Positions 2 to 9,156 of a stretch of 9,156 bases of DNA are shown here, piece after piece (the stretch's first letter is position 1; each line of letters starts with the position of its first letter). The stretch spans positions 1 to 9,156 of IMG/VR virus record IMGVR_UViG_2579778919_000004. One strand, given 5' to 3'. A model generated the notes under the pieces. That model was not told where the DNA came from, made no database searches, and saw only the letters and a program-made list of their open reading frames with translations. This stretch comes from a virus (Duplodnaviria > Heunggongvirae > Uroviricota > Caudoviricetes). Both the position numbers and the translations under genes were made by a program.

Positions 2-700
2 TCAGGTGTCTGGATATCGCACCTGCTGGAAAACCTGCCGGAAGAGAAACTGGCATCGGCGCTGAAAGATGACAACCCGAACTGGGAGTATATCGACGGC
101 GAAATCGTCAAGCAGGGATCGCTGGCCCACAGTCAACTTGATATCCCGGAACTCCAGCGCCGGGGGCTGGTCATTCTGGCTTCGGAGAGTAAGGATTTTC
201 GTCTGCTGGCGCATCTGCTGAGAACCCTGCAACACGCCGGTGATCCTCATCTCGCATTGCGCCTGCTGGCGCTGTATGTGGAGCATTACTGGGCGGTGGC
301 TGCGCCGCAGAATATGGCGCATAAAAAACGCTTTGCCAGCCAGGTCATTAAACGCTTTGAAACAGGTATTGAAGTTTTTTCACAGAACGCCGCCACAGCG
401 CAGCGCGATGCGCTGTCAGGGGAACTGGCAAAACTGGCGCAATGCTGGCAGTCACATAACGCCCCGGAACTGGCACAGGCTACTGATGATCTTTTTGCCC
501 TGTACCAGCGTGCGTTTAATCGTGCGGCACCGGCTCCTGTCCCCACTCCGGCGGCCTCCGGTAGTTCACCACAGACCACCGCCACGTCTGAAAGCGGCGT
601 GACGCAACCCAGTGCTCCGGCTCCCCAAATCGTCATCGACAGTCACGACGACAAAGCCTGGCGCGACACGCTGTTAAACATGACGGGCGTTAGGGGTTAA
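2..700 (+). CDS. 3' portion of a host chromosomal gene (5' end lies outside the window); unidentified protein with a Pro/Ala/Ser/Thr-rich linker; possible ImpA_N/TssA-like N-terminal domain; probable prophage integration target
   Basis: Seen in sequence: the frame starting at position 2 is open with no stops to TAA at 698-700; the first in-frame ATG at 257 is probably internal. This stretch is visibly more GC-rich than the phage DNA to its right. The C-terminal part has a low-complexity linker (PAPVPTPAASGSSPQTTATSESGVTQPSAPAP). Motifs SKDFRLLAHLL and LALRLLALYVEHYW are reminiscent of ImpA_N-type domains, recalled from memory and unverified. The stop overlaps the integrase stop on the opposite strand (TTAA at 697-700). 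Confidence 0.55.
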   Translation, partial: SGVWISHLLENLPEEKLASALKDDNPNWEYIDGEIVKQGSLAHSQLDIPELQRRGLVILASESKDFRLLAHLLRTLQHAGDPHLALRLLALYVEHYWAVAAPQNMAHKKRFASQVIKRFETGIEVFSQNAATAQRDALSGELAKLAQCWQSHNAPELAQATDDLFALYQRAFNRAAPAPVPTPAASGSSPQTTATSESGVTQPSAPAPQIVIDSHDDKAWRDTLLNMTGVRG

Positions 701-2010
701 CTTACTGATTTTAATAATCCTCCCGTACTGTTCTCGTGGCTATGGGGCATCAATGGGGCAAAATCTGCCAGCTTCTGATTCAGCATTGCGATCTGCTCTG
801 CGCTGCTGTCAGCCATCCATGCACCGTAAACATTGAACACCATCTGCGCGCTCGCATGCCCCATCTGACTGGCAATAAAACTCGGGTTTGCACCAGCAGA
901 TAATGACCAGCACGCATAGGTATGTCGTGACTGGTACGCCTTTCTGTGTCTGATCCCCGCGCGCTTTAGTGCAGCTTCCCATGAGTCGCCTACTGAATCG
1001 ACCCGGTAGATAAATCCGACCTGCTTACTGCGCCTGACCACATGCGGGTTAAAGACGAATGTACACTCATGGGTCACCGAACGACCGTACTCACGTAACT
1101 GCACTTCAATGTGATATTGCCTGCCCAGCCTTGTCATTTCAGCCTGATTTTTCAGGATACTGATTGCGGGCTGGATAAGATGCACCACTCGATCTGTGCT
1201 TGCCTCGGTTTTCGGTAGAGTGAACTCACCAAGTTTCGTATAATTACGCCTGACGGTAATTGTTCCCGCCTTCAGGTCGATATCTTCCCAGGCCAGGGAA
1301 ACCAGTTCCCCGTGACGCATTCCTGTGTACACTGCTAATGACCACAGGTTTTTCGTCTGCTGATGCCGGCATGCATCTATCAGGCGAATAAATTCATCAC
1401 GAGACAGAGGATCTGGTTCTGCCCTGGCTTTTTTCAGAGGCTTAATTCCCTCGAATGGATTCACCTCTAAGTAACCGTGATCCGCAGCAAACTGAAACAT
1501 TCCGGCCATTGTCGTCATGTAATAGTTCACAGTAACAACGCTTCGCCCTTTTGTCGGGGATTTGTTTTTCGTCGGATTCTGGTAACCAGTTAGCAAATCT
1601 TTCCTGAGATACAGCAATTCCTCTTTGGTTACTGCTGACGCCAGGCGATTACCTCCGATCCTCGGAACCATATTCCTTGCGACAGACTCATAGCGATTGA
1701 ATGCGTTCGCGCAGATTTCCATCCGTTTCAGATCCAGCCATTTTTCTTCAAGTTCTTTCACTGTAATGTCTTTTTTACTTACACCAAAAGCCTTGAGATT
1801 AGGGGAGTCAGGAAACTGGGTTGCATAATCAAAGGTTCCTGTGCGGATGGCAAAACATACTGATATCCGCAGTTCCCCGGCTATCTTCCTGTTCTTAGCG
1901 GTGTCAGGGACACCGAGACTTTCCCTGACACGCTTACCTTTAAAATTAAACCAGATGCGTAATGTGCCACCGTGGTTTTCGACGCCTGTTGGATATGTGA
2001 CTTTATCCAT
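697..2010 (-). CDS. int: Phage tyrosine integrase (site-specific recombinase), 437 aa
   Basis: ATG at 2008-2010 preceded by a GGAGG Shine-Dalgarno 5 nt upstream. The C-terminal catalytic region has tyrosine-recombinase hallmarks: YTGMRHGEL (Arg box), SRHTYACW, QMGHAS and NVYGAWM (candidate nucleophilic Tyr). The N-terminal region (RIWFNFKGKRVRESLG ... GTFDYATQFP) resembles Rac/lambdoid integrases. Position at the prophage end next to xis. Confidence 0.95.
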   Translation of the reverse strand: MDKVTYPTGVENHGGTLRIWFNFKGKRVRESLGVPDTAKNRKIAGELRISVCFAIRTGTFDYATQFPDSPNLKAFGVSKKDITVKELEEKWLDLKRMEICANAFNRYESVARNMVPRIGGNRLASAVTKEELLYLRKDLLTGYQNPTKNKSPTKGRSVVTVNYYMTTMAGMFQFAADHGYLEVNPFEGIKPLKKARAEPDPLSRDEFIRLIDACRHQQTKNLWSLAVYTGMRHGELVSLAWEDIDLKAGTITVRRNYTKLGEFTLPKTEASTDRVVHLIQPAISILKNQAEMTRLGRQYHIEVQLREYGRSVTHECTFVFNPHVVRRSKQVGFIYRVDSVGDSWEAALKRAGIRHRKAYQSRHTYACWSLSAGANPSFIASQMGHASAQMVFNVYGAWMADSSAEQIAMLNQKLADFAPLMPHSHENSTGGLLKSVS

Positions 2011-2065
2011 TGATACCTCCAGACGCCCAAGAGCGATATGAGCTTACCTTTTTCATGGCATCAAA

Positions 2066-2302
2066 TCACCCTGGCTGTTTGTTTTTCATTGAAGCCACCC
2101 AGGCATCGACCGCTTTACGGTTATACATGCATTCACTTGATGGCTTCGGGTTACCATCTGGTGAAACGTGGATATATTCCCGGCCAATCATCCAGCACTC
2201 TTTTCTGGCCCGGAGGATGGTACCGGGCTTGAGCCCGGTCACCGCGATCAGAACACTTTCACAAACCCAATCGTTAGGAGCTAACTGAATAACATTGCTC
2301 AT
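2066..2302 (-). CDS. xis: Excisionase (Xis-type DNA-binding protein), 78 aa
   Basis: Small ORF immediately upstream of int on the same strand; ATG at 2300-2302. The segment GTILRARKECWMIGREYIHV resembles the winged-helix core of lambdoid excisionases (lambda Xis has a comparable RECRIF...DGREY pattern). Confidence 0.8.
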   Translation of the reverse strand: MSNVIQLAPNDWVCESVLIAVTGLKPGTILRARKECWMIGREYIHVSPDGNPKPSSECMYNRKAVDAWVASMKNKQPG

Positions 2303-2311
2303 ATACCCGCC

Positions 2312-2461
2312 TCACACCACGTCAAGGCCACGGCAGTGGCACCACGTTTCGAACATTCGTTTAACCACTTCCCGGCAGTAGAACCCTTCCTGATCCCTAG
2401 AGAGGTCGTAGCGGTTGCTGTAACGCTGGCGCACCCATATTTCAAATGCCTTGTGCATCAT
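2312..2461 (-). CDS. Small hypothetical protein (49 aa), translated by hand; absent from the ORF track, probably because it is short
   Basis: Manual translation of the minus strand gives MMHKAFEIWVRQRYSNRYDLSRDQEGFYCREVVKRMFETWCHCRGLDVV. The ATG at 2459-2461 overlaps the stop of the upstream gene and follows GGAGGTGAA. It fills an otherwise unexplained 155-nt gap in a tightly packed operon. Confidence 0.4.
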   Translation of the reverse strand: MMHKAFEIWVRQRYSNRYDLSRDQEGFYCREVVKRMFETWCHCRGLDVV

Positions 2462-2769
2462 TTCACCTCCGCAGATAACGTCGTCACAATTACATGCTGG
2501 CGCGCCTTGGGCTTTATCAGAAAAATAGCCTTGTCATACCTGAGTCCGTATCCACCTTCACGTTCGCAGCGTGCGACTGAGGCGCACAAAGAGCGGGGAA
2601 TACCTTTCTTGCTGACATCAAATACCCAGGCGTTTTTGAGATCGAGGATCAGATTTCCTACATCGCCACCAATGCGTTCGATATAGCGTTCAATAGCGTG
2701 AACAGTCACCATGTAGTGGCGAAACTGCACACTTCCTGAGGCGGTCATTATTGGTGTAGTGGTGGTCAT
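2458..2769 (-). CDS. Hypothetical phage protein (103 aa from the ATG at 2767-2769)
   Basis: The track ORF 2458..2805 begins further upstream, but GGAGGTGAAGTG-ATG places the likely start at 2769, overlapping the stop of the upstream gene (ATGA). No recognisable domain. Confidence 0.7.
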   Translation of the reverse strand: MTTTTPIMTASGSVQFRHYMVTVHAIERYIERIGGDVGNLILDLKNAWVFDVSKKGIPRSLCASVARCEREGGYGLRYDKAIFLIKPKARQHVIVTTLSAEVK

Positions 2770-3260
2770 CACTTCACCTCCACGCCGATCCCGGCAATGA
2801 CACAAGCTCGTTCTATAGCTTCTTTCGCCCAGCGCTTATAGGTTTCCGGATGGAAAGCCTCGCTTTTGCCTGTACCGCTCCAGAATGCTTTTGAACCAGT
2901 ATCTGGCAGGGTGATGGTCAATTGCTTACCATTGGTAACATCGTTAATCAGCCCTGACTTAATATTCAGTTGCAATTCTTTGTCTATCAGTGCTTCTTCC
3001 AGTTCGGCAACATGGCATTCAGAATCAATCAGGTTGCTTTCCACAGAAGACAGGGCTTGTTTTAGTCGCTCGATCTCCGCCGCCATGTAGTAACCGGTTT
3101 TGCTCCAGGTATCCACATCATCACCGGTCATATCCGGTTCCATCGTCGCCATGAGAATGGCGTCGTGATAGTCCTGGCTGCCACTGGTAATCGCAACAGC
3201 GTAGGTGTCACTGTTTTCGCGCTTATGGATAAGCACGACAGGGTTAGTGATTTTGCTCAT
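2769..3260 (-). CDS. Hypothetical phage protein, 163 aa, with a predicted central coiled-coil-like segment
   Basis: ORF with ATG at 3258-3260 overlapping the upstream stop (ATGA). The central region (AAEIERLKQALSSVESNLIDSECHVAELEEALIDKELQL) has a heptad-like character. No recognised family. Confidence 0.72.
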   Translation of the reverse strand: MSKITNPVVLIHKRENSDTYAVAITSGSQDYHDAILMATMEPDMTGDDVDTWSKTGYYMAAEIERLKQALSSVESNLIDSECHVAELEEALIDKELQLNIKSGLINDVTNGKQLTITLPDTGSKAFWSGTGKSEAFHPETYKRWAKEAIERACVIAGIGVEVK

Positions 3261-3481
3261 CGTGCCGCCTCTCGCTGGATTGTCTTGTGGGCTCGCAACA
3301 TATCGCGGGATTTTCCGGACAAAACCGTCTTCATGAAGAACATTCCACTGCGGTTTGCAACTATTCCTGGAGTGCAGATCAGCGTGGCGTCTACCACCCG
3401 GTTATGTTTACGGAATTCAAACACCGTGCTGGTGATAACGATGTTCGCCACGGCGCCGTAGTCCTGGTATTGGATTTTCAT
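3257..3481 (-). CDS. Hypothetical small phage protein, 74 aa
   Basis: ATG at 3479-3481 preceded by GAGGAG with an 8-nt spacer; overlaps the stop of the upstream clamp-like gene (ATGA). Confidence 0.7.
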   Translation of the reverse strand: MKIQYQDYGAVANIVITSTVFEFRKHNRVVDATLICTPGIVANRSGMFFMKTVLSGKSRDMLRAHKTIQREAAR

Positions 3482-4044
3482 GCCAGATGCTCCTCAACAA
3501 TTTTGAAAGCATCATCACGGCATGGCATCACGACGAACTCAGGGTTACCGTATGTAGTGTTGATCACTGGATCGAACTGAATGCGTACCGCTCCAGCCTC
3601 ACCGGAAGGGCGTAACTGGATGGGAATAAACTTTCGCTCGCGACCAAACATCTTTTCCGGATAGCTGAGGTATTCAGCCTGGATAACCGGATTGATACTG
3701 AAATCCACTTTTTTCGGGATGACGCGTTCCATATCAGGAAAACGACCATCAACAAGTTTGATGCCAGTGATCAAGATCCGACGCTCGAACGTGTCGCGGT
3801 GAATGGCAAAGGCTTCTTTGTTGAATACCAGTTCAGTGGTTTCCGCTTTCGCCGGAACCGGTCCTTCAAACTGGACGATGATGTTTTTCTTCGTCCGGAT
3901 GCCGTGCTCCATGCGCAGTGCTACATGCCCGTTAGTTGACTCGATATATTTCGGAGTGATGTGCACACCATTCAGGTAGTAACGGACATCATTTTTTGCA
4001 GCGCATACCAGAGCTGCGCGAATGAGTTTCGACTGGATGATCAT
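3478..4044 (-). CDS. Truncated DNA polymerase III beta sliding clamp (DnaN)-like protein, 188 aa, corresponding to clamp domain II plus an abbreviated domain III
   Basis: Three colinear motifs match E. coli DnaN as I recall it: DVRYYLNG (DnaN domain II, with flanking K-LI-A and T-GH-LA context), KLVDGRFPD..RV.PK (DnaN TSKLVDGRFPDYRRVLPK) and the C-terminal VVMP.R (DnaN ends AAYVVMPMRL). The ORF is about half the length of DnaN (366 aa) and lacks domain I. Strong tandem SD (GGAGGTGGAGG) before the ATG at 4042-4044. Confidence 0.7.
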   Translation of the reverse strand: MIIQSKLIRAALVCAAKNDVRYYLNGVHITPKYIESTNGHVALRMEHGIRTKKNIIVQFEGPVPAKAETTELVFNKEAFAIHRDTFERRILITGIKLVDGRFPDMERVIPKKVDFSINPVIQAEYLSYPEKMFGRERKFIPIQLRPSGEAGAVRIQFDPVINTTYGNPEFVVMPCRDDAFKIVEEHLA

Positions 4045-4871
4045 GCCTCCACCTCCACGAAGATCTCTTTCGGATCCTTACGCAGAACGAAGCCACCAAA
4101 TTCAGGATGTTGCCAGCGCTTGCGTTTACCGCTTGGGGGAACGGATTCTTCCAGCAGCACCTGAAATGCGTGAATGAACGATTCACGGTGTACGCACAGC
4201 CCACGAACTCCCGGCAACTGTCTGGAGGGCAGGTTTGCGAACTGAACAAGACGACGGCACGAAGGATCGGACAGACTGGTTTCCCATGACACTTTGTGTA
4301 CCGGAACGAATTCGGCATCGGTATTCACGAATTCAGTCGAACTAATGCGCCGTTGTGGTAGAGAGGAAGATACAGGCGAAGCAGCAACCAGGTTGGTGCC
4401 ACTCACTTCCATTACTGCTTTCATCGTCGCTGATGCGGTTGCTTCGGCCACAACACGGGCCAGCGAAAGAATGTCATGGTTCATGCTGATTTCCTGCTGG
4501 TGTGATTTAGCTACTGGCACTTCTTTGCTGTATGTGCCTGTGGTCATGATGGCAGGGAGTACATCTTCACAAACCCAGTCCTGTACGCGTTCAGCCGATG
4601 GAAGCTGGCTTCGCAGGATAAGGCGGAACAAGTCGGCCTGACCAGCAAGCTGAGTACCGCGCGGTTTTTCACCAAACCCCAATTCTAACGATTCGTTATA
4701 ATCAAGTTTAATCAATGCCTTGCAGTGGTCTTTCAGCGCTTTTGCTGGGTTCGTATAACCGAGGGATTTAGCCAGTTCTACAGCGTCAAACGCTGGCTTT
4801 CCCTCATAAAGAATTCCGCTCATAGAAAAATTGAGTTCTTCTGAGCTAAAGGTCATAAGTTGTTTATTCAT
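4041..4871 (-). CDS. BRO-N domain protein (phage antirepressor-like N-terminal domain) with an uncharacterised C-terminal half, 276 aa
   Basis: The N-terminal ~120 aa shows a BRO-N pattern: FSSEELNFSMSGILYEGKPAFDAVELAKSLGYTNP ... DLFRLILRSQLPSAERVQDWVCEDVLPAIMTTGTY. ATG at 4869-4871 preceded by GAGGGAAATAACG. The C-terminal ~150 aa has no recognisable motifs. Confidence 0.82.
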   Translation of the reverse strand: MNKQLMTFSSEELNFSMSGILYEGKPAFDAVELAKSLGYTNPAKALKDHCKALIKLDYNESLELGFGEKPRGTQLAGQADLFRLILRSQLPSAERVQDWVCEDVLPAIMTTGTYSKEVPVAKSHQQEISMNHDILSLARVVAEATASATMKAVMEVSGTNLVAASPVSSSLPQRRISSTEFVNTDAEFVPVHKVSWETSLSDPSCRRLVQFANLPSRQLPGVRGLCVHRESFIHAFQVLLEESVPPSGKRKRWQHPEFGGFVLRKDPKEIFVEVEA

Positions 4872-4882
4872 CGTTATTTCCC

Positions 4883-5461
4883 TCAGTGCATAACTGGCAT
4901 TTCTGGCATGCCGTTGGCGTTAATCTCTCCGATGTAGTCATCGTGAAGCATCTCAAGTCCTTTTCGCCCAAAGGGTGACATCCTGAATCCGCACCCCGGA
5001 TCCGCAATCACCATGTCCTGATACATGCGAAGGGCTAGGGCTGAACCCTCGCAAACGCCATATTTCTCTATGGCGATGCTTTCCACATGGTTAGCGAGAG
5101 AAAAACGCAGTGGACCGGGGTAGATACTCAAATTTCCTTTCTTACCCGAATAAATAACTGCGATATCAACGCCGCCGTCACCGTTAGGAACCTCAACCAT
5201 GCCGTTCTTATCCTTCTCTTCGTTGATGAATACTGTTGCTACCAGCCAGCGCCACAGAATGAGTTCTTTCTCTGCGCCTAAAGAAACCAAACCAGCTGCC
5301 ACGGCATCCATAATGCAGGCCAACCAACGCAGCCCCTCTGAGTTGCGGGAGTCAAAGCGCGAACCATCGAATTGTTTAACCGCGCCAGACCAGCCAATAA
5401 CGCGAGTTCCGATCTTGATGCCGTTTGGCGTAGTTTCTGGCGCGTCGTAATTGCTGCTCAT
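4883..5461 (-). CDS. Hypothetical phage protein, 192 aa
   Basis: ATG at 5459-5461 preceded by GGAGGG with a 6-nt spacer; overlaps the upstream stop (ATGA). No recognised domain. Confidence 0.78.
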   Translation of the reverse strand: MSSNYDAPETTPNGIKIGTRVIGWSGAVKQFDGSRFDSRNSEGLRWLACIMDAVAAGLVSLGAEKELILWRWLVATVFINEEKDKNGMVEVPNGDGGVDIAVIYSGKKGNLSIYPGPLRFSLANHVESIAIEKYGVCEGSALALRMYQDMVIADPGCGFRMSPFGRKGLEMLHDDYIGEINANGMPEMPVMH

Positions 5462-5880
5462 CGAATACCCTCCGGTTTACTGGCCTGTAGTTCGTCAACC
5501 TCTTTAACGAAGCGGTCGTGCATGGCGTCCCACTTCTCACACCATTTCGTCATGTCACGCTTAATGGCCAGAATGCGGCGAAGACGTCGAACACAGCGCT
5601 GGTGGGCTCCGATGTACTCAACTGTTGTGCCTCCTCGCTGCCAACAATTCAGCTCTGGATTGAGTGGGTGGACTGCCTGCACATCCGGGTGCCGCTGCTC
5701 GAAGCCGGAGCGATAAAACGCTTCTGAAGTCATAAAGAACGCCAGATAGCGGATCGCCGTATCTCGCGTGAAGCATTTTTTGATACGACCGTGGCGTACT
5801 GCCACGAACAGTGGGCCAACTGGCGTATCGTGTTTCTGTAATGCAAGGTCAATCATGCTTACGGTGCGTTTATCGTTCAT
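5458..5880 (-). CDS. Hypothetical phage protein, 140 aa, with four Cys and a basic stretch (possible metal- or nucleic-acid-binding)
   Basis: ATG at 5878-5880 overlapping the upstream stop (ATGA). Cys at KKCF, NCWQ, HQRCV and KWCEKW; arginine-rich RCVRRLRRILAIKR. No recognised family. Confidence 0.72.
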   Translation of the reverse strand: MNDKRTVSMIDLALQKHDTPVGPLFVAVRHGRIKKCFTRDTAIRYLAFFMTSEAFYRSGFEQRHPDVQAVHPLNPELNCWQRGGTTVEYIGAHQRCVRRLRRILAIKRDMTKWCEKWDAMHDRFVKEVDELQASKPEGIR

Positions 5881-6098
5881 TTCCGATCCTTAACTTTGCT
5901 GTATCGCTCGTGACTCATTACTTCCCAGTTCTTTCCGCCATCGCGGGAGAGTAGCCGCCAGCGGTGATTAACCTTGAGGCTCAAATTACCGGAGCCGTGC
6001 ATACGGCAGGGGTGAATGCGCCTTGCTCTGAACTGGCTTAAAACGTGTGCTGCTTTGAGGTGAACCCACTCAGGAATTCGAATTGCTGTCAGTGCCAC
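5877..6098 (-). CDS. Hypothetical small phage protein, 73 aa, with a probable GTG start
   Basis: The first codon of the track ORF is GTG, not ATG, and is preceded by AGGAG with a ~7-nt spacer. The 5' end overlaps the 3' end of the upstream gene by 29 nt. An internal start is an alternative. Confidence 0.55.
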   Translation of the reverse strand: MALTAIRIPEWVHLKAAHVLSQFRARRIHPCRMHGSGNLSLKVNHRWRLLSRDGGKNWEVMSHERYSKVKDRK

Positions 6099-6321
6099 CA
6101 GTTAGCTCCTGTATACGTAACCCGGCTTCGCGAGCCATTTTGATAAAAGTGTCCAGTGCGCAAATATGTTCGTCGTCGAGCAGCCGGCGGTCGCATGTCA
6201 CACGCCCTTTTTCTATGTAAAGAACCACGCGTCCGGTGAAATCCGGAAGCACATGCAGATCCACGTTGAGGACTGGGGGGGGGATCTGCATTCCGTGCAT
6301 AATTGTTTGTTGTGAGGCCAT
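6070..6321 (-). CDS. Hypothetical small phage protein, 83 aa; contains a C9 homopolymer in its coding sequence
   Basis: ATG at 6319-6321 preceded by GGAGGAATTAACTG. The codons for IPPP (ATC CCC CCC CCA) form a 9-nt C run, seen as G9 on the + strand at ~6275-6283. Confidence 0.65.
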   Translation of the reverse strand: MASQQTIMHGMQIPPPVLNVDLHVLPDFTGRVVLYIEKGRVTCDRRLLDDEHICALDTFIKMAREAGLRIQELTGGTDSNSNS

Positions 6322-6683
6322 CAGTTAATTCCTCCACATACGTATTTCTCTTTCGCGTGTTTAATTAACTCCGCAAAAATCTCGTCAACAATCATCTTTC
6401 CGGTTTCGGTCAGATATTCGGTGTGTCCATTGATATCGACGCTTTTCATATACGTCTGGCGAAGAAATGTTTCCGCTTCTGTGTTGAATTCAGTCCGATC
6501 CTGTTTTTCGAAGCGCAGCAAAAGTTTCAGTATTGATTCTTCGTTAATCTCGATAACCTGAATATTGTCATCGGGCATATTTACGGAGAGACAATAACCT
6601 CCTGTCTTGCGCTTCATTCGGTTTAATGTCGCAATAGCAATGCGGCGGCGATAAATTTCAATGGTGTTGTTTTTCATTGTCAC
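6321..6683 (-). CDS. Hypothetical phage protein, 120 aa; first gene of the tightly coupled block
   Basis: ORF with ATG at 6681-6683 (a second ATG lies two codons in); moderate SD-like GGGCGG upstream. Its stop overlaps the start of the next gene (TGATG). No recognised domain. Confidence 0.68.
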   Translation of the reverse strand: MTMKNNTIEIYRRRIAIATLNRMKRKTGGYCLSVNMPDDNIQVIEINEESILKLLLRFEKQDRTEFNTEAETFLRQTYMKSVDINGHTEYLTETGKMIVDEIFAELIKHAKEKYVCGGIN

Positions 6684-6776
6684 TACCGCCCGTAAGCCTT
6701 GCGCAGAAAAAGGTTTGCAATATGCAGATAACTATTTCCATAAGAGGCGAAAAGTTTTGCTGTCTTGTGTGCTGCT

Positions 6777-7073
6777 TTATCTTTCAGAAACGTCATTATT
6801 GCCCCCCCCTTTGAGGTGTTCTCCATCGTCATTTTTTGTCATGAAGCAAAGCTCATTAAGTAATGAGGTGAATCTTCCCGCTACCTTCACATCAGTGCGT
6901 GTGATTGCGGGCATAAGTAACTGGGTAAATTCAGCACGCAGCTCATGCGCATATTTATTGGCACACTCTGCTGTTTTGTGGGCTTTATTTATGTAAAGAA
7001 AGTCGCCATCCTGATTGGCTGGATGGACTTTGTTATTCACGATTTCACTTCTGACGATAATATTCATTTGCAT
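6777..7073 (-). CDS. Hypothetical protein, 98 aa (or 96 aa from the ATG at 7065-7067); AT-rich moron-like gene with a G8 tract near its 3' end
   Basis: The ORF lies in AT-rich DNA. GAGG sits only 2 nt before the first ATG but 8 nt before the third-codon ATG, which favours the latter start. The codons for KGGGN contain G8, seen as C8 on the + strand at ~6802-6809. Confidence 0.62.
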   Translation of the reverse strand: MQMNIIVRSEIVNNKVHPANQDGDFLYINKAHKTAECANKYAHELRAEFTQLLMPAITRTDVKVAGRFTSLLNELCFMTKNDDGEHLKGGGNNDVSER

Positions 7074-7140
7074 TTCCTCAGGGTGAGTTTTTCCCCACCC
7101 TAAAAGGTGTTAATTATTAATAATTGACTTAATTAGTTAG

Positions 7141-7434
7141 TTAAATAGCAGAGAACATTTTCTTAATATCAGGATGGTCATCTATGATTTTTTTAGCATC
7201 ATCACATGCCTCGTCATATGATTTAAAGAAATCAACTAATACGAAATAATTTTCGATGCGTTCGTAAACGGCGAACTCCATCTCACCAACAAATGTCGTA
7301 TTGAATTGGTAATCAAAACCTTTATCGTGAGGCTGCACAGCATGGCAATAAGACCAATGCGAATTGGTTGATCTAAGCTTGGCGTGAATATCAAATGTCT
7401 GGCAGGTAGGTTTTGGTTGGGAGTTTGTGTTCAT
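7141..7434 (-). CDS. Hypothetical mildly acidic protein, 97 aa; first gene downstream of the predicted PL
   Basis: ATG at 7432-7434 preceded by GGAG with an 8-nt spacer. AT-rich composition. The protein is Asp/Glu-rich toward the C-terminus (DEACDDAKKIIDDHPD). It is not basic or Arg-rich, so it does not look like a lambda N-type antiterminator. Confidence 0.68.
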   Translation of the reverse strand: MNTNSQPKPTCQTFDIHAKLRSTNSHWSYCHAVQPHDKGFDYQFNTTFVGEMEFAVYERIENYFVLVDFFKSYDEACDDAKKIIDDHPDIKKMFSAI

Positions 7435-7560
7435 CTCATTGGCTCCGTTGTTTGCCGATGAAATGAGAATACTTAAGTATTAATTGAAGGTCAATGGTAT
7501 TAATACAAAAAGAATAATAGTTTTCTTATGTATTTGTTATTGAAGATTATTTTAGTAATA
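7435..7560 (-). promoter_or_regulatory. Predicted leftward early promoter and operator region (PL/OL analogue)
   Basis: On the minus strand: TTGACC (-35; + strand ggtcaa at ~7489-7494), a 17-nt spacer, then TATTCT (-10; + strand agaata at ~7466-7471), about 25 nt upstream of the ATG at 7434. A perfect 14-bp palindrome AATACTTAAGTATT (~7468-7481) overlaps the -10 and spacer, and a second palindrome GTATTAATAC (~7497-7506) lies just upstream of the -35. Both share the TAATAC half-site found in the cI-cro intergenic region. Confidence 0.4.
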
Positions 7561-7598
7561 AAAAAGCCGACGCTATGGTCGGCTTGGTGCTTTTTTGG
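7559..7598 (-). terminator. Rho-independent terminator downstream of the repressor gene (hairpin flanked by an A-run and a T-run, so potentially bidirectional)
   Basis: AAAAAA-AAGCCGAC-gctatg-GTCGGCTT-ggtgc-TTTTTT: a perfect 8-bp stem with a 6-nt loop. On the minus strand the stem is followed directly by TTTTTTATT, about 20 nt past the repressor stop. Confidence 0.6.
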
Positions 7599-7605
7599 CA
7601 GCGGA

Positions 7606-8298
7606 TCAGAAGATTGTTGATACCCAAAACAGTCTTCCTAAAACTTCAAGACTATCCATGTCTACTTCTTCGTCAGGGTATTCATCAGAGTTGTAGCTTC
7701 TGATTGTCACCTTATCTGGCCCAGATCTGTAGAGGATTTTTAACCTTTTCCATCCACCTTGGTTGATGCCGTAAATTTTACCATCCACGATACGCTTGTC
7801 ATGGCAGTTTATGGCAACAGTTGAGCCATCAGCGATCACTGGCTCCATGCTATTTCCGTGTGCAGCAAAGCATAGAACGCCATCACCATCACTATTAGCT
7901 CCCACCTTTCGCAATGTTGCTTTGGAAAATCTAAGTTTTTTTCCATTGTAATCATCATTAAGGGCGCTGCCATCTCCACATGCGAACTCGATATCCTTCA
8001 AGTAAGGCACCTCTACCTCATCATCCTCAAGCGGCGTTTGCTTATCCCATGGATCTATACCAAACATTCTTTGTTCTGGCGTTTTTGCTGGCCCCATGGT
8101 GCCTTCACCAGTGCTTAACCATATGGGATCTACATCCAGTGCTTTGGCTATATCCACGATTTTTCCGCTGGACTGAGCTTTTCCTGAGGTTAGTTTTTGT
8201 ATGGCCCCCTGGCTTACCCCAACCCTATGCGCTAATTGACTTTGAGTAGCCCCAGCATGAGCCATCGCCAGCCTTAGTCTTTCTGCAAGTGTGTTCAT
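7606..8298 (-). CDS. CI-like prophage repressor: N-terminal XRE-type HTH plus C-terminal S24 (LexA/UmuD-like) autopeptidase domain, 230 aa
   Basis: N-terminal HTH (QSQLAHRVGVSQGAIQKLTSG). C-terminal S24 signatures: GNSMEP (catalytic Ser in a G-x-S-M context) and downstream WKRLK (candidate catalytic Lys). Candidate autocleavage site Cys-Gly in FACGDG, as in UmuD. ATG at 8296-8298 preceded by GGAG. Divergent from a cro-like gene. Confidence 0.9.
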   Translation of the reverse strand: MNTLAERLRLAMAHAGATQSQLAHRVGVSQGAIQKLTSGKAQSSGKIVDIAKALDVDPIWLSTGEGTMGPAKTPEQRMFGIDPWDKQTPLEDDEVEVPYLKDIEFACGDGSALNDDYNGKKLRFSKATLRKVGANSDGDGVLCFAAHGNSMEPVIADGSTVAINCHDKRIVDGKIYGINQGGWKRLKILYRSGPDKVTIRSYNSDEYPDEEVDMDSLEVLGRLFWVSTIF

Positions 8299-8424: not shown

Positions 8425-8667
8425 ATGACTGATGAGGTGTTTGAATCCCCAATGGCGAAAGCCGTGTACGTTGCTGGTGGTCAAAGTTCGCTTGCTAAAA
8501 AGGTTGGCGTTACGCAAGGGGCCGTCTGGAAGTGGGTCAGGGGGATCAAGAAAGTTTCTCCGGTCCATGCAGTGGCAGTATCAAACGCAGTTAATGGAAT
8601 TGTTAAGCCTCATGAACTGCGGCCTGATTTGCCGACTCTTTTCCCGCACCCGGGCAATGAGGTGTGA
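8425..8667 (+). CDS. Cro-like / YdaS-family HTH regulator, 80 aa
   Basis: ATG at 8425 preceded by AAGGG with a 7-nt spacer; the track start at 8380 is a TTG inside the operator region and was rejected. The segment AVYVAGGQSSLAKKVGVTQGAVWKWVRG ... ELRPDL resembles Rac prophage YdaS as I recall it (VVGGQSALARLLGVSPPSVNQWIKG ... ELRPDI). Divergent from the repressor. Confidence 0.8.
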   Translation: MTDEVFESPMAKAVYVAGGQSSLAKKVGVTQGAVWKWVRGIKKVSPVHAVAVSNAVNGIVKPHELRPDLPTLFPHPGNEV

Positions 8668-8878: not shown

Positions 8879-9156
8879 TTACGGAAAGGTGCCGTCTGAG
8901 TTTTGGTTGGACCAAAACGGCAACAAATGGAAAGTGCCCACGATCAAAGGTCGCCTGAAAATGCGCGTACCCTGCCATCGCGCACTACGCGAATTTGTTC
9001 TTTGGCGCGACGGTTTCAAATGCCGTCATTGTGGTAGTCAAGACCGCATTAAATTGGTCGCAGATCACATTGTATCGCGACGTAACGGTGGTGCTCACCA
9101 CCCAGACAACATGCAATGTTTGTGTGATTCCTGCAATGCGCGCAAGGCTTCCCTAG
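8871..9156 (+). CDS. HNH endonuclease family protein, 3'-truncated by the window edge
   Basis: ATG at 8871 preceded by GGAGG with a 6-nt spacer; overlaps the previous gene by 8 nt. Manual translation: MRDYGKVPSEFWLDQNGNKWKVPTIKGRLKMRVPCHRALREFVLWRDGFKCRHCGSQDRIKLVADHIVSRRNGGAHHPDNMQCLCDSCNARKASL. It has the C-x2-C ... D-H ... N ... H ... C-x2-C arrangement of the HNH motif. Confidence 0.8.
   Translation, partial: MRDYGKVPSEFWLDQNGNKWKVPTIKGRLKMRVPCHRALREFVLWRDGFKCRHCGSQDRIKLVADHIVSRRNGGAHHPDNMQCLCDSCNARKASL

What the first reader, a model, noticed from the sequence alone, without database searches (positions are those of the whole stretch)
6777..7434. Two AT-rich moron-like genes occupy the PL-proximal position where an N-type antiterminator would be expected
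The first two genes downstream of the predicted PL lie in DNA that is visibly more AT-rich than the rest of the operon. Neither product is basic or Arg-rich like lambda N; the first is mildly acidic. Acidic early proteins at this position are candidates for anti-restriction or anti-defence functions (DNA mimics) or superinfection exclusion. The 98-aa gene also has its own AT-rich upstream region (7074-7140) and could be expressed in the lysogen.
Basis: partly seen in the sequence, partly recalled or inferred. Interest (0 to 1): 0.5.

Follow-up and report, generated by a model that had tools for sequence, protein, structure and literature searches.

The report
Orphan early genes behind prophage PL
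The two AT-rich genes are real, repressor-controlled first genes of a prophage early-left operon; the first belongs to a conserved orphan family that always sits beside the repressor, the second is a frame-variable gene overlapping an overlooked 37-codon gene, and none has a known function.

Summary
ORFs 7141-7434 (97 aa) and 6777-7073 (98 aa) lie just downstream of an operator-flanked PL. Their GC is 0.389, against 0.50 for the rest of the operon, and neither is N-like.

The "moron / lysogen-expressed" reading is mostly not supported.
- orf97 belongs to a conserved orphan family (dN/dS 0.16). It is the first or second gene after a cI-type repressor even in relatives only 23-38% identical. It has no promoter or terminator of its own and is AT-rich in 94 of 94 relatives.
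- The 98-aa ORF is one frame variant of "gene A". Gene A fills a variable slot that holds an S24-only peptidase gene in 68 of 85 related loci.
- Its 3' end overlaps an overlooked, strongly conserved 37-codon gene B (6683-6796), which is translationally coupled to whatever fills that slot.
- A G6-G11 tract at the A/B junction varies between otherwise identical sequences. It gives a fused 127-aa form, a coupled form or an overlapping form. The window also carries a private extra A.
- The AT-rich spacer upstream holds a conserved hairpin that pairs the ribosome-binding site. No promoter was detected there.

No homology or fold evidence gives a function. An immediate-early host-directed role is an inference.

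The parts
7564..7585 (-). Intrinsic terminator hairpin just after the cI stop. It insulates the PRM/cI transcript from the genes downstream.
   Evidence: 8-bp stem with 5 GC pairs, followed by TTTTATTACT. It is the only minus-strand terminator-like site in the window.
7466..7517 (-). PL promoter (-35 TTGACC at 7494-7489, -10 TATTCT at 7471-7466) with two operator-like sites, OL1 at 7466-7483 and OL2 at 7500-7517.
   Evidence: The operator pattern matches four times in the window, only at PL and PR/PRM, against 0.33 expected.
7141..7434 (-). orf97, the first cistron of the PL operon. It belongs to a conserved orphan family that is mildly acidic and has GC 0.374.
   Evidence: dN/dS 0.16; conserved position next to the repressor.
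7080..7110 (-). Conserved intergenic RNA element. The main hairpin pairs AGGGTGGG with CTCACCCT (7080-7101) around a GAAAAA loop (7088-7093). A competing small upstream stem pairs CACC (7106-7109) with GGTG (7096-7099). In the predicted fold, CCUU pairs with the Shine-Dalgarno GAGG (7076-7079).
   Evidence: conserved in 67 distinct downstream sequences from 100 orf97-bearing loci; compensatory changes in the upstream stem; none in the main stem; MFE -18.2 kcal/mol, Shine-Dalgarno paired.
6777..7073 (-). The likely start is the ATG at 7067. The helical core is very strongly conserved. The C-terminal frame depends on two homopolymer runs.
   Evidence: core dN/dS 0.04; this exact protein occurs on this contig only.
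6832..6837 (-). A6 run. The window has one A more than all relatives, which changes ...MTKMTMENTSK... to ...MTKNDDGEHLK...
   Evidence: the A6 version is found in 0 IMG/VR contigs and the A5 version in 5.
6802..6809 (-). G8 run, 5 nt upstream of the gene B ATG. This is the hypervariable junction between gene A and gene B.
   Evidence: G6-G11 across 29 unique loci. Pairs with 100% identical flanks differ in run length.
6683..6796 (-). Small gene B, 37 aa: MTFLKDKAAHKTAKLFASYGNSYLHIANLFLRKAYGR. It overlaps the 3' end of gene A by 20 nt. Its stop overlaps the GTG of orf120.
   Evidence: present in 134 of 139 loci; dN/dS 0.15, or 0.12 where gene A is absent; ATGA overlap with the upstream gene in 58 of 59 S24-type loci; phiP27, Stx phages, Fels-1.

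Best explanation
The interval is the promoter-proximal end of a cI-repressed early-left (PL) operon. The prophage is an N-less, lambda-like one related to Hendrixvirinae phages such as AsXd-1. The window is a whole contig of the E. coli SCD1 draft assembly.

Shown:
1. orf97 is transcribed from an operator-covered PL and is insulated from cI by a terminator. It belongs to a protein-coding orphan family under purifying selection. The family's defining trait is its position as the first or second gene after a cI-type repressor. It is a conserved early gene of this phage group. It is not a moron.
2. The 98-aa ORF is one of three frame variants of gene A. Gene A occupies a variable second slot, which is usually filled by an S24-only peptidase-domain gene.
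4. In the gene A lineage a hypervariable G tract lies at the junction, 5 nt upstream of the gene B ATG. Depending on its length, gene A is fused to B (127 aa), stops on a TAATG overlapping B's start (coupled), or stops 8 codons into B. The window shows the third state, produced by a private extra A.
5. A conserved hairpin between orf97 and the second slot is predicted to pair that gene's Shine-Dalgarno sequence.

Inferred:
- All three proteins are made only after derepression, as immediate-early products.
- orf97 acts in trans on a conserved host or phage target, through host takeover or anti-defence. It does not bind RNA or DNA.
- Gene A and gene B work together. This rests on fusion ('Rosetta stone') logic.
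- The G tract and the hairpin tune how much B, and in which form, is made.
For: Promoter, operators and terminator.

orf97:
- 104 clusters at 90% identity and 41 representatives at 50% identity.
- dN/dS 0.16 over 69 unique sequences.
- GC 0.369 +/- 0.015, lower than the operon downstream in 94 of 94 loci.
- Found after repressors that range from 25% to 100% identity to the window cI.
- Distant members (P0176, P0174, P0173, P0163) also follow an HTH-S24 repressor divergent from Cro/YdaS.

Second-slot inventory over 85 non-redundant loci: S24-only gene 68, gene A 15, a 141-aa protein 1, none 1.

Gene A, gene B and their junction:
- Gene A core dN/dS 0.04 and gene B 0.15.
- In distant relatives (64-80% identity) A and B are separate, adjacent ORFs.
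- ATGA overlap between the S24-only gene and B in 58 of 59 loci.
- Three C-terminal forms of gene A.
- G6-G11 tract lengths; 18 of 25 near-identical pairs differ in tract length, including pairs with 100% identical flanks.

Hairpin.
Against: - There is no functional evidence of any kind. No hit was found in Pfam, PHROGs, NCBIfam, PADLOC or PDB sequences.
- The AlphaFold models are unreliable (pLDDT 52 and 53). Foldseek gave nothing below E = 1.
- The promoter scan is consensus-based. AT-rich DNA can hide weak or non-sigma-70 promoters, so lysogenic expression is not excluded.
- Homopolymer lengths in draft assemblies can be sequencing errors. The window's A6 run is private to one 2013-era draft contig.
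- The main hairpin stem shows no compensatory changes, so it could be conserved as DNA sequence and not as RNA structure.
Confidence: 0.6

Rival explanations
1. Both genes are recently acquired AT-rich morons encoding anti-restriction or anti-defence DNA mimics, or superinfection-exclusion factors. At least the second has its own promoter and is expressed in the lysogen.
For: - AT-richness is confirmed.
- Both proteins are orphans with no known family.
- The second slot is variable between related phages.
- In lambda, the AT-rich PL-proximal genes are accessory host-interaction genes: ral GC 0.41, sieB 0.39, kil 0.36, against N at 0.50.
Against: - orf97 keeps its position across deep divergence and across immunity types.
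- Its low GC is a stable family trait.
- Neither gene is flanked by its own promoter or terminator.
- PL is operator-covered and a terminator follows cI.
- Net charge of -5 and -1 is far from known DNA mimics.
- The spacer upstream of gene A holds a hairpin plus Shine-Dalgarno sequence shared with the S24-only gene.
Confidence: 0.2
2. orf97 functionally replaces N. It is a non-Arg-rich early factor that keeps RNA polymerase reading through the 6.7-kb left operon, for example by inhibiting Rho or modifying RNAP. The conserved A-rich-loop hairpin downstream of it would be its cis site, like a nut site.
For: - It sits in the first position after PL throughout an N-less phage group.
- orf97 and the hairpin travel together as one module; the mosaic breakpoint lies at the start of the next gene.
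- The hairpin loop GAAAAA recalls lambda boxB. This is from memory.
- The top Foldseek hit is the Rho inhibitor Rof, but at E = 3.9 and probability 0.05, which is noise.
Against: - The protein is acidic and has no RNA-binding motif.
- No intrinsic terminator is predicted on this strand between PL and int.
- The genes are tightly packed and coupled, which disfavours Rho entry. This is an inference.
- No equivalent hairpin was seen downstream of PR.
- The loop sequence is not conserved.
- There is no profile similarity to lambda N.
- Nothing resembles HK022 putL and Rfam gives no hit.
Confidence: 0.08
3. The frame variation is an artefact or decay. The 98-aa ORF is simply a 127-aa gene broken by homopolymer sequencing errors or by neutral slippage mutations, and the junction has no regulatory meaning.
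For: - The window's extra A is private to one draft contig.
- Homopolymers are error-prone. This is established knowledge.
- In E. coli VREC0864 the gene is disrupted by IS5, so it is dispensable for the prophage.
Against: - G6-G11 lengths occur in 29 unique loci from independent assemblies.
- Each of the three frames ends in a short defined tail, and each is represented by multi-member clusters: 331, 48, 44 and 30 member sequences.
- One frame recreates the ancestral stop/start overlap, TAATG.
- The gene A core and gene B remain under strong purifying selection in this lineage.
Confidence: 0.25
4. The two genes are rex-like. They would be co-transcribed with cI from PRM in the lysogen and protect the host against other phages.
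For: They lie directly downstream of cI on the same strand, as rexA and rexB do in lambda.
Against: A strong terminator, then a promoter with two operator-like sites, lies between cI and orf97. In lambda, PL lies beyond rexB. There is no PADLOC hit.
Confidence: 0.05

Closest known systems
Lambda N and HK022 Nun (first gene of the PL operon)
   Same: Same map position, immediately downstream of an operator-controlled PL. Similar small size (about 100 aa).
   Different: - No Arg-rich motif: 2 Arg, pI 5.4.
- No nut or put RNA in the roughly 25-nt leader.
- No sequence or profile similarity.
- Not a member of either family.
Lambda PL-proximal accessory genes ral, sieB, ea10 and kil
   Same: Small, AT-rich early-left genes (lambda GC 0.36-0.41) that act on host functions and are dispensable for growth. 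The variable second slot resembles this accessory zone.
   Different: - No homology to Ral or Ea10.
- Gene B against Kil gives hhalign probability 7.9% over 13 columns.
- orf97 is conserved in position and is not sporadic.
Simple-sequence-repeat contingency loci (poly-G phase variation, e.g. Neisseria, Campylobacter, Klebsiella rmpA)
   Same: A G6-G11 homopolymer inside coding sequence whose length differs between otherwise identical sequences and shifts the reading frame. For comparison see PMC5084427, PMC6321876 and bioRxiv 10.1101/2025.09.12.675794.
   Different: - It is not an ON/OFF switch. The conserved core of gene A is upstream of the tract and is always made.
- The tract chooses between three C-terminal outcomes, including fusion to a separately conserved micro-gene.
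- The tract also sits where that gene's Shine-Dalgarno sequence should be.
- Switching within a population is untested.
Phage tail-chaperone G/GT type dual products
   Same: Two proteins share an N-terminal part, and the longer one reads into the downstream frame.
   Different: Here the change is genomic (tract length). It is not a conserved ribosomal slippery site. The A AAA AAT in the window would need a +1 shift, not a -1 shift, and it is private to this contig.

Membership tests
Lambda N-type antiterminator | N-terminal arginine-rich motif; basic protein | tested here: not met
   orf97 has 2 Arg and pI 5.37. orf98 has 5 Arg and pI 6.40.
Lambda N-type antiterminator | nut site (boxA plus boxB hairpin) in the leader between PL and the first gene, with a second copy after cro | tested here: not met
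   The leader is about 25 nt with no hairpin of note. No equivalent of the 7080-7101 hairpin follows cro.
Lambda N-type antiterminator | Sequence or profile similarity to N family proteins | tested here: not met
   No Pfam or PHROG hit. hhalign of the orf97 family against lambda N gives probability 0.07%.
HK022 put-type RNA antitermination | A two-stem-loop RNA of about 70 nt just downstream of PL | tested here: not met
   Only chance short matches to the HK022 PL-nun leader. No Rfam hit at E <= 1. It is not known whether Rfam holds a put model.
Moron | Autonomous cassette with its own promoter upstream and terminator downstream | tested here: not met
   No minus-strand promoter-like site in 7074-7140 and no terminator after either gene. 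The scan is consensus-only, so weak promoters are not excluded.
Moron | Sporadic presence between otherwise similar phage genomes | tested here: inconclusive
   Not met for orf97, which is position-conserved. Met for gene A, found in 15 of 85 loci and alternating with an S24-only gene.
Moron | Base composition different from neighbouring phage genes | tested here: met
   GC 0.389 against 0.50. However, this is a stable family trait shared with the whole immunity-proximal block.
DNA-mimic anti-restriction proteins (Ocr/ArdA type) | Very acidic surface that mimics the DNA backbone | tested here: not met
   Net charge of -5 (15 Asp/Glu in 97 aa) and -1.
DNA-mimic anti-restriction proteins (Ocr/ArdA type) | DNA-like fold or structural similarity to a known mimic | not testable with these tools
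   The models have pLDDT 52-53. Foldseek found nothing significant.
Lambda Kil (considered for small gene B) | Sequence or profile similarity to Kil | tested here: not met
   hhalign probability 7.9% over 13 columns. No Pfam or NCBIfam hit.
Simple-sequence-repeat contingency locus | Homopolymer of at least 7 units in or next to coding sequence whose length changes the reading frame | tested here: met
   G8 at 6802-6809. There are three frame outcomes.
Simple-sequence-repeat contingency locus | Length polymorphism between otherwise near-identical sequences | tested here: met
   18 of 25 pairs with at least 97% flank identity differ in tract length, including pairs with 100% identical flanks. 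Sequencing error is not excluded.
Simple-sequence-repeat contingency locus | High-frequency reversible switching within a clonal population, with a phenotype | not testable with these tools
   Needs amplicon deep sequencing and reporter fusions.

The most novel reading that the evidence does not exclude
The gene A / gene B junction is a three-state contingency switch in a prophage early operon. Slippage of the G tract, which doubles as gene B's ribosome-binding site, stochastically decides the form of the conserved 37-aa micro-protein. It is made fused to gene A, made by termination-reinitiation coupling, or largely occluded. Sibling prophages would then differ in an immediate-early function. 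orf97 would be the position-defining member of an uncharacterised family of first-after-PL proteins in N-less lambdoid phages.
Probability: 0.3. Interest if true: 0.6.

Novelty: new member of a known kind. Interest (0 to 1): 0.4.

Why it matters
N-less lambda-like prophages are common in Enterobacteriaceae, yet what their first PL genes do is unknown. This work gives three concrete handles:
- It defines a position-conserved orphan family, orf97: 104 clusters at 90% identity and 41 representatives at 50%.
- It finds an almost universally unannotated 35-38-aa gene that is coupled to a variable upstream partner. The gene is also present in Stx-converting phages, phiP27 and Fels-1.
- It finds a hypervariable G tract that rewires the junction between that gene and its partner.

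These give testable entry points into early host takeover in these prophages. They also show that AT-richness next to PL is a family trait here and should not be read as evidence of recent acquisition.

Tried and rejected
- **Family searches.** Pfam, PHROGs, NCBIfam and PADLOC gave nothing for orf97, gene A (short and long forms) or gene B. The one exception was four distant orf97 relatives that touch the function-less phrog_1662.
- **PDB sequence profiles.** No hits below E = 0.1.
- **Structure prediction.** AlphaFold2 on 30- and 26-sequence alignments gave pLDDT 52 and 53. Foldseek against the PDB gave no hit below E = 1. The Rof hit (E = 3.9) is noise.
- **Gene B as Kil.** hhalign probability 7.9%. 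Rejected as evidence.
- **orf97 against lambda Ral, Ea10 and N.** Nothing.
- **RNA families.** Rfam on the whole window gave nothing. No similarity to HK022 putL.
- **Hairpin covariation.** The main stem has none. The small upstream stem has compensatory changes at 2 of 5 pairs.
- **S24-only protein as a copy of the cognate cI C-terminal domain.** Only 27% identity.
- **Literature.** Searches found no study of these genes.
- **Tool limits.** The 49-aa version found only 11 unnamed 37-aa clusters.

Full report
**Context**

The window is a prophage left arm read on the minus strand. It contains:
- integrase (697-2010) and excisionase (2066-2302);
- a run of tightly packed early genes;
- orf120 (6321-6683);
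- the two ORFs of the finding (6777-7073 and 7141-7434);
- a cI-type HTH-S24 repressor (7606-8298);
- a divergent Cro/YdaS-type gene and a DUF4222 gene.

Exact-sequence look-up shows the window is a complete 9,156-bp contig of the draft genome of E. coli SCD1. The closest annotated relatives are a prophage of E. coli G3/10 and phage AsXd-1, which is classified in Hendrixvirinae. Both carry a 100% identical cI.

**Checking the observation**

- Both ORFs exist as described.
- GC of 6777-7434 is 0.389, against 0.502 for 697-6320. None of the 4,967 equally long windows in the rest of the operon goes below 0.453.
- orf97 has pI 5.37 with 2 Arg. orf98 has pI 6.40 with 5 Arg.
- The AT-rich block is wider than the two genes, about 6250-7800.

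PL is well placed.
- TTGACC-17-TATTCT lies at 7494-7466.
- It is overlapped and flanked by two sites matching TTAATAC-N4-GTATTAA. The only other two matches in the window lie between cI and cro. That is 4 found against 0.33 expected, and 0 of 200 shuffles reached 4.
- Directly after cI there is a strong terminator hairpin at 7564-7585.

So orf97 is not co-transcribed with cI in the rex manner. It is the first gene of a repressor-controlled operon, with a leader of only about 25 nt.

**orf97**

- The protein has 104 homologous clusters at 90% identity, in Enterobacter, Salmonella, Citrobacter, Klebsiella and E. coli. All are called hypothetical.
- A profile search of 1.84 billion representatives finds only 41.
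- It matches nothing in Pfam, PHROGs, NCBIfam, PADLOC or PDB sequences.
- The AlphaFold model is unreliable (pLDDT 52). Foldseek returned only noise.

It is nonetheless a real gene.
- Median dN/dS is 0.16 over 69 unique sequences.
- It has a conserved core, EFAVYER..YFVLVDFFKSYDEAC..AKKIID.

Its most informative property is its position.
- In about 100 fetched loci it follows the repressor, whether that repressor is 100% or only 25-50% identical to the window cI.
- Family members only 23-38% identical (P0176, P0174, P0173, P0163) are again the first or second gene after an HTH-S24 repressor that is divergent from a Cro/YdaS gene.
- Its low GC (0.369 +/- 0.015) is below that of the downstream operon in 94 of 94 loci.

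Low GC is therefore a long-standing trait of this family. It is not evidence of recent import. For comparison, the lambda PL-proximal accessory genes ral, sieB, ea10 and kil have GC 0.36-0.41, while N has 0.50.

Homologues of orf98 come in three lengths that share the N-terminal ~85 residues:
- about 127 aa, ending ...KGGAIMTFLKDKAAHKTAKLFASYGNSYLHIANLFLRKAYGR;
- about 97 aa, ending ...GGGNNDVSER;
- about 90 aa, ending ...GGQ.

The C-terminal 37 residues of the long form are in fact a separate, widely conserved small gene, here called gene B.
- An ORF of 35-38 codons starting M(T/S)F(I/L)KDK and ending LYL(K/R)KAYG(R/Y) is present in 134 of 139 loci.
- Its dN/dS is 0.15, or 0.12 in loci that lack gene A.
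- In loci where the second slot holds an S24-only peptidase-domain gene, B's ATG overlaps that gene's TGA (ATGA) in 58 of 59 cases.
- B also occurs, mostly unannotated, in phiP27, Fels-1 and many Stx-converting phages.
- In relatives whose gene A core is only 64-80% identical, A and B are separate adjacent ORFs.

In the window's close relatives a G tract lies 5 nt upstream of B's ATG.
- Its length ranges from G6 to G11 in 29 unique loci.
- 18 of 25 pairs with at least 97% identical flanks differ in tract length. Several of these pairs have 100% identical flanks.

Depending on tract length, gene A has one of three fates:
- it is fused to B;
- it stops at a TAATG overlapping B's start, which is the ancestral kind of coupling;
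- it stops 8 codons inside B.

The window corresponds to the fused type (A5, G8, as in L089) plus one extra A (6832-6837). This extra A puts it in the third state and changes eight residues. The A6 version is absent from IMG/VR, whereas the A5 version is present in 5 contigs. The exact protein is recorded only from this contig. The extra A may therefore be a recent mutation or a homopolymer sequencing error.

The gene A core itself is under very strong constraint, with dN/dS 0.04. It is predicted to be helical, at low confidence.

**The variable slot**

Among 85 non-redundant loci carrying orf97, the next gene is:
- an S24-only protein of about 128 aa in 68;
- gene A in 15;
- a 141-aa protein in 1;
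- nothing in 1.

Gene A is thus the sporadic element. orf97 and B are the constant ones. In E. coli VREC0864, gene A is interrupted by IS5.

**The 'own upstream region' (7074-7140)**

This spacer is AT-rich (GC 0.328), but the consensus scan finds no minus-strand promoter in it. What is conserved across 67 distinct sequences is AACACC-loop-GGTG(G/T)GG-A-rich hexaloop-CTCACCCTGAGGAAATG.
- The predicted fold has MFE -18.2 kcal/mol. It is an 8-bp hairpin (7080-7101) extended by CCUU pairing with the Shine-Dalgarno GAGG.
- A competing small upstream stem (ACACC/GGTGT) shows compensatory changes at two of five pairs.
- The main stem shows none.
- The element is shared by loci with gene A and loci with the S24-only gene.
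- The DNA mosaic breakpoint in the window falls exactly at the start of gene A.

I read this as a translational control and linker element, not a promoter. This is an inference.

**Is an N-type factor expected here?**

- Neither protein is N-like.
- Nothing resembles HK022 putL, and Rfam gives no hit.
- No intrinsic terminator is predicted on this strand between PL and int.
- N-less lambdoid phages are documented, and their early antitermination is unresolved (PMC12315714).

The expectation is therefore weak. That orf97 substitutes for N cannot be excluded, but it has no positive support.

**Function**

Nothing computational assigns a function.

Most likely, orf97, the slot-2 gene and B are immediate-early proteins made only after derepression.
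- orf97's invariant position, independence from immunity type and non-basic nature suggest a protein-protein interaction with a conserved host or phage target.
- The recurring A-B fusion suggests that A and B act together.
- The G tract and the hairpin would tune B's mode of expression.

Anti-defence remains possible, but the present data do not favour it over other early roles. The specific DNA-mimic idea is disfavoured by the modest charge.

**Verdict**

It is mostly unsupported on two points, the moron status of the first gene and lysogenic expression.

The added value lies in three results: the position-defined orphan family, the overlooked micro-gene, and the hypervariable junction. Interest is moderate.

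Noticed in passing
window 6683-6796 (-): An unannotated 37-codon gene (MTFLKDK...RKAYGR). It is conserved in 134 of 139 related loci and is also present in phiP27, Fels-1 and Stx-converting phages. Its stop overlaps the start of orf120. No known family matches it. A weak, non-significant resemblance to lambda Kil was seen.
   Followed up: yes
window 6802-6809 (G8) and 6832-6837 (A6): Homopolymer runs at the gene A / gene B junction. The G run ranges from G6 to G11 between otherwise identical relatives. The A6 run is private to this contig, which is a draft assembly of E. coli SCD1, so a sequencing error is possible.
   Followed up: yes
window 7080-7110 (-): A conserved hairpin with an A-rich hexaloop. 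It is predicted to pair the Shine-Dalgarno sequence of the next gene, and a competing upstream stem shows compensatory changes.
   Followed up: partly
L002 2617-3003; L145 3367-3753; 68 of 85 orf97 loci: Related prophages carry an S24 peptidase domain protein without an HTH domain (about 128 aa, GDSMQP motif kept) in place of gene A. It is only 27% identical to the cI C-terminal domain. It could modulate the repressor or be a UmuD-like protein.
   Followed up: partly
window 3478-4044 (-): A 188-aa early protein with weak similarity to the DNA polymerase III beta clamp (TIGR00663 E 1.2e-5, phrog_947). Its best PHROG, phrog_3007, is labelled RusA-like. It looks like a half-size clamp-like protein.
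   Followed up: no
window 5877-6098 (-): A 73-aa, very basic protein (pI 11.5, phrog_1525). Homologues are annotated as ParE-like toxin (PF24732) in related loci. No obvious antitoxin partner was examined.
   Followed up: no
window, whole (sites at 5, 1900, 2761, 4974, 7082, 8735, 9087): The pattern GGTG-N6-14-CACC occurs 7 times against 1.03 expected (0 of 200 shuffles reached 7). No explanation was found.
   Followed up: no
window 5598-5605 and 8473-8480 (+): Two Chi sites (GCTGGTGG), both on the plus strand, against 0.30 expected (8 of 200 shuffles reached 2). The early-left operon has no recognisable exo/bet/gam-type Rec module. This recalls the 'no Rec module, high Chi' lambdoid class of PMC12315714.
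   Followed up: no
window 8978-8992 (+): A terminator-like hairpin downstream of the cro-DUF4222 pair in the rightward operon. It could be a tR1-like site, which would bear on whether this phage needs early antitermination.
   Followed up: no
L001 4865-5845: In E. coli VREC0864, the homologue of gene A is interrupted by an IS5 element. A different pair of genes (70 aa and 141 aa) occupies the position of orf97.
   Followed up: partly
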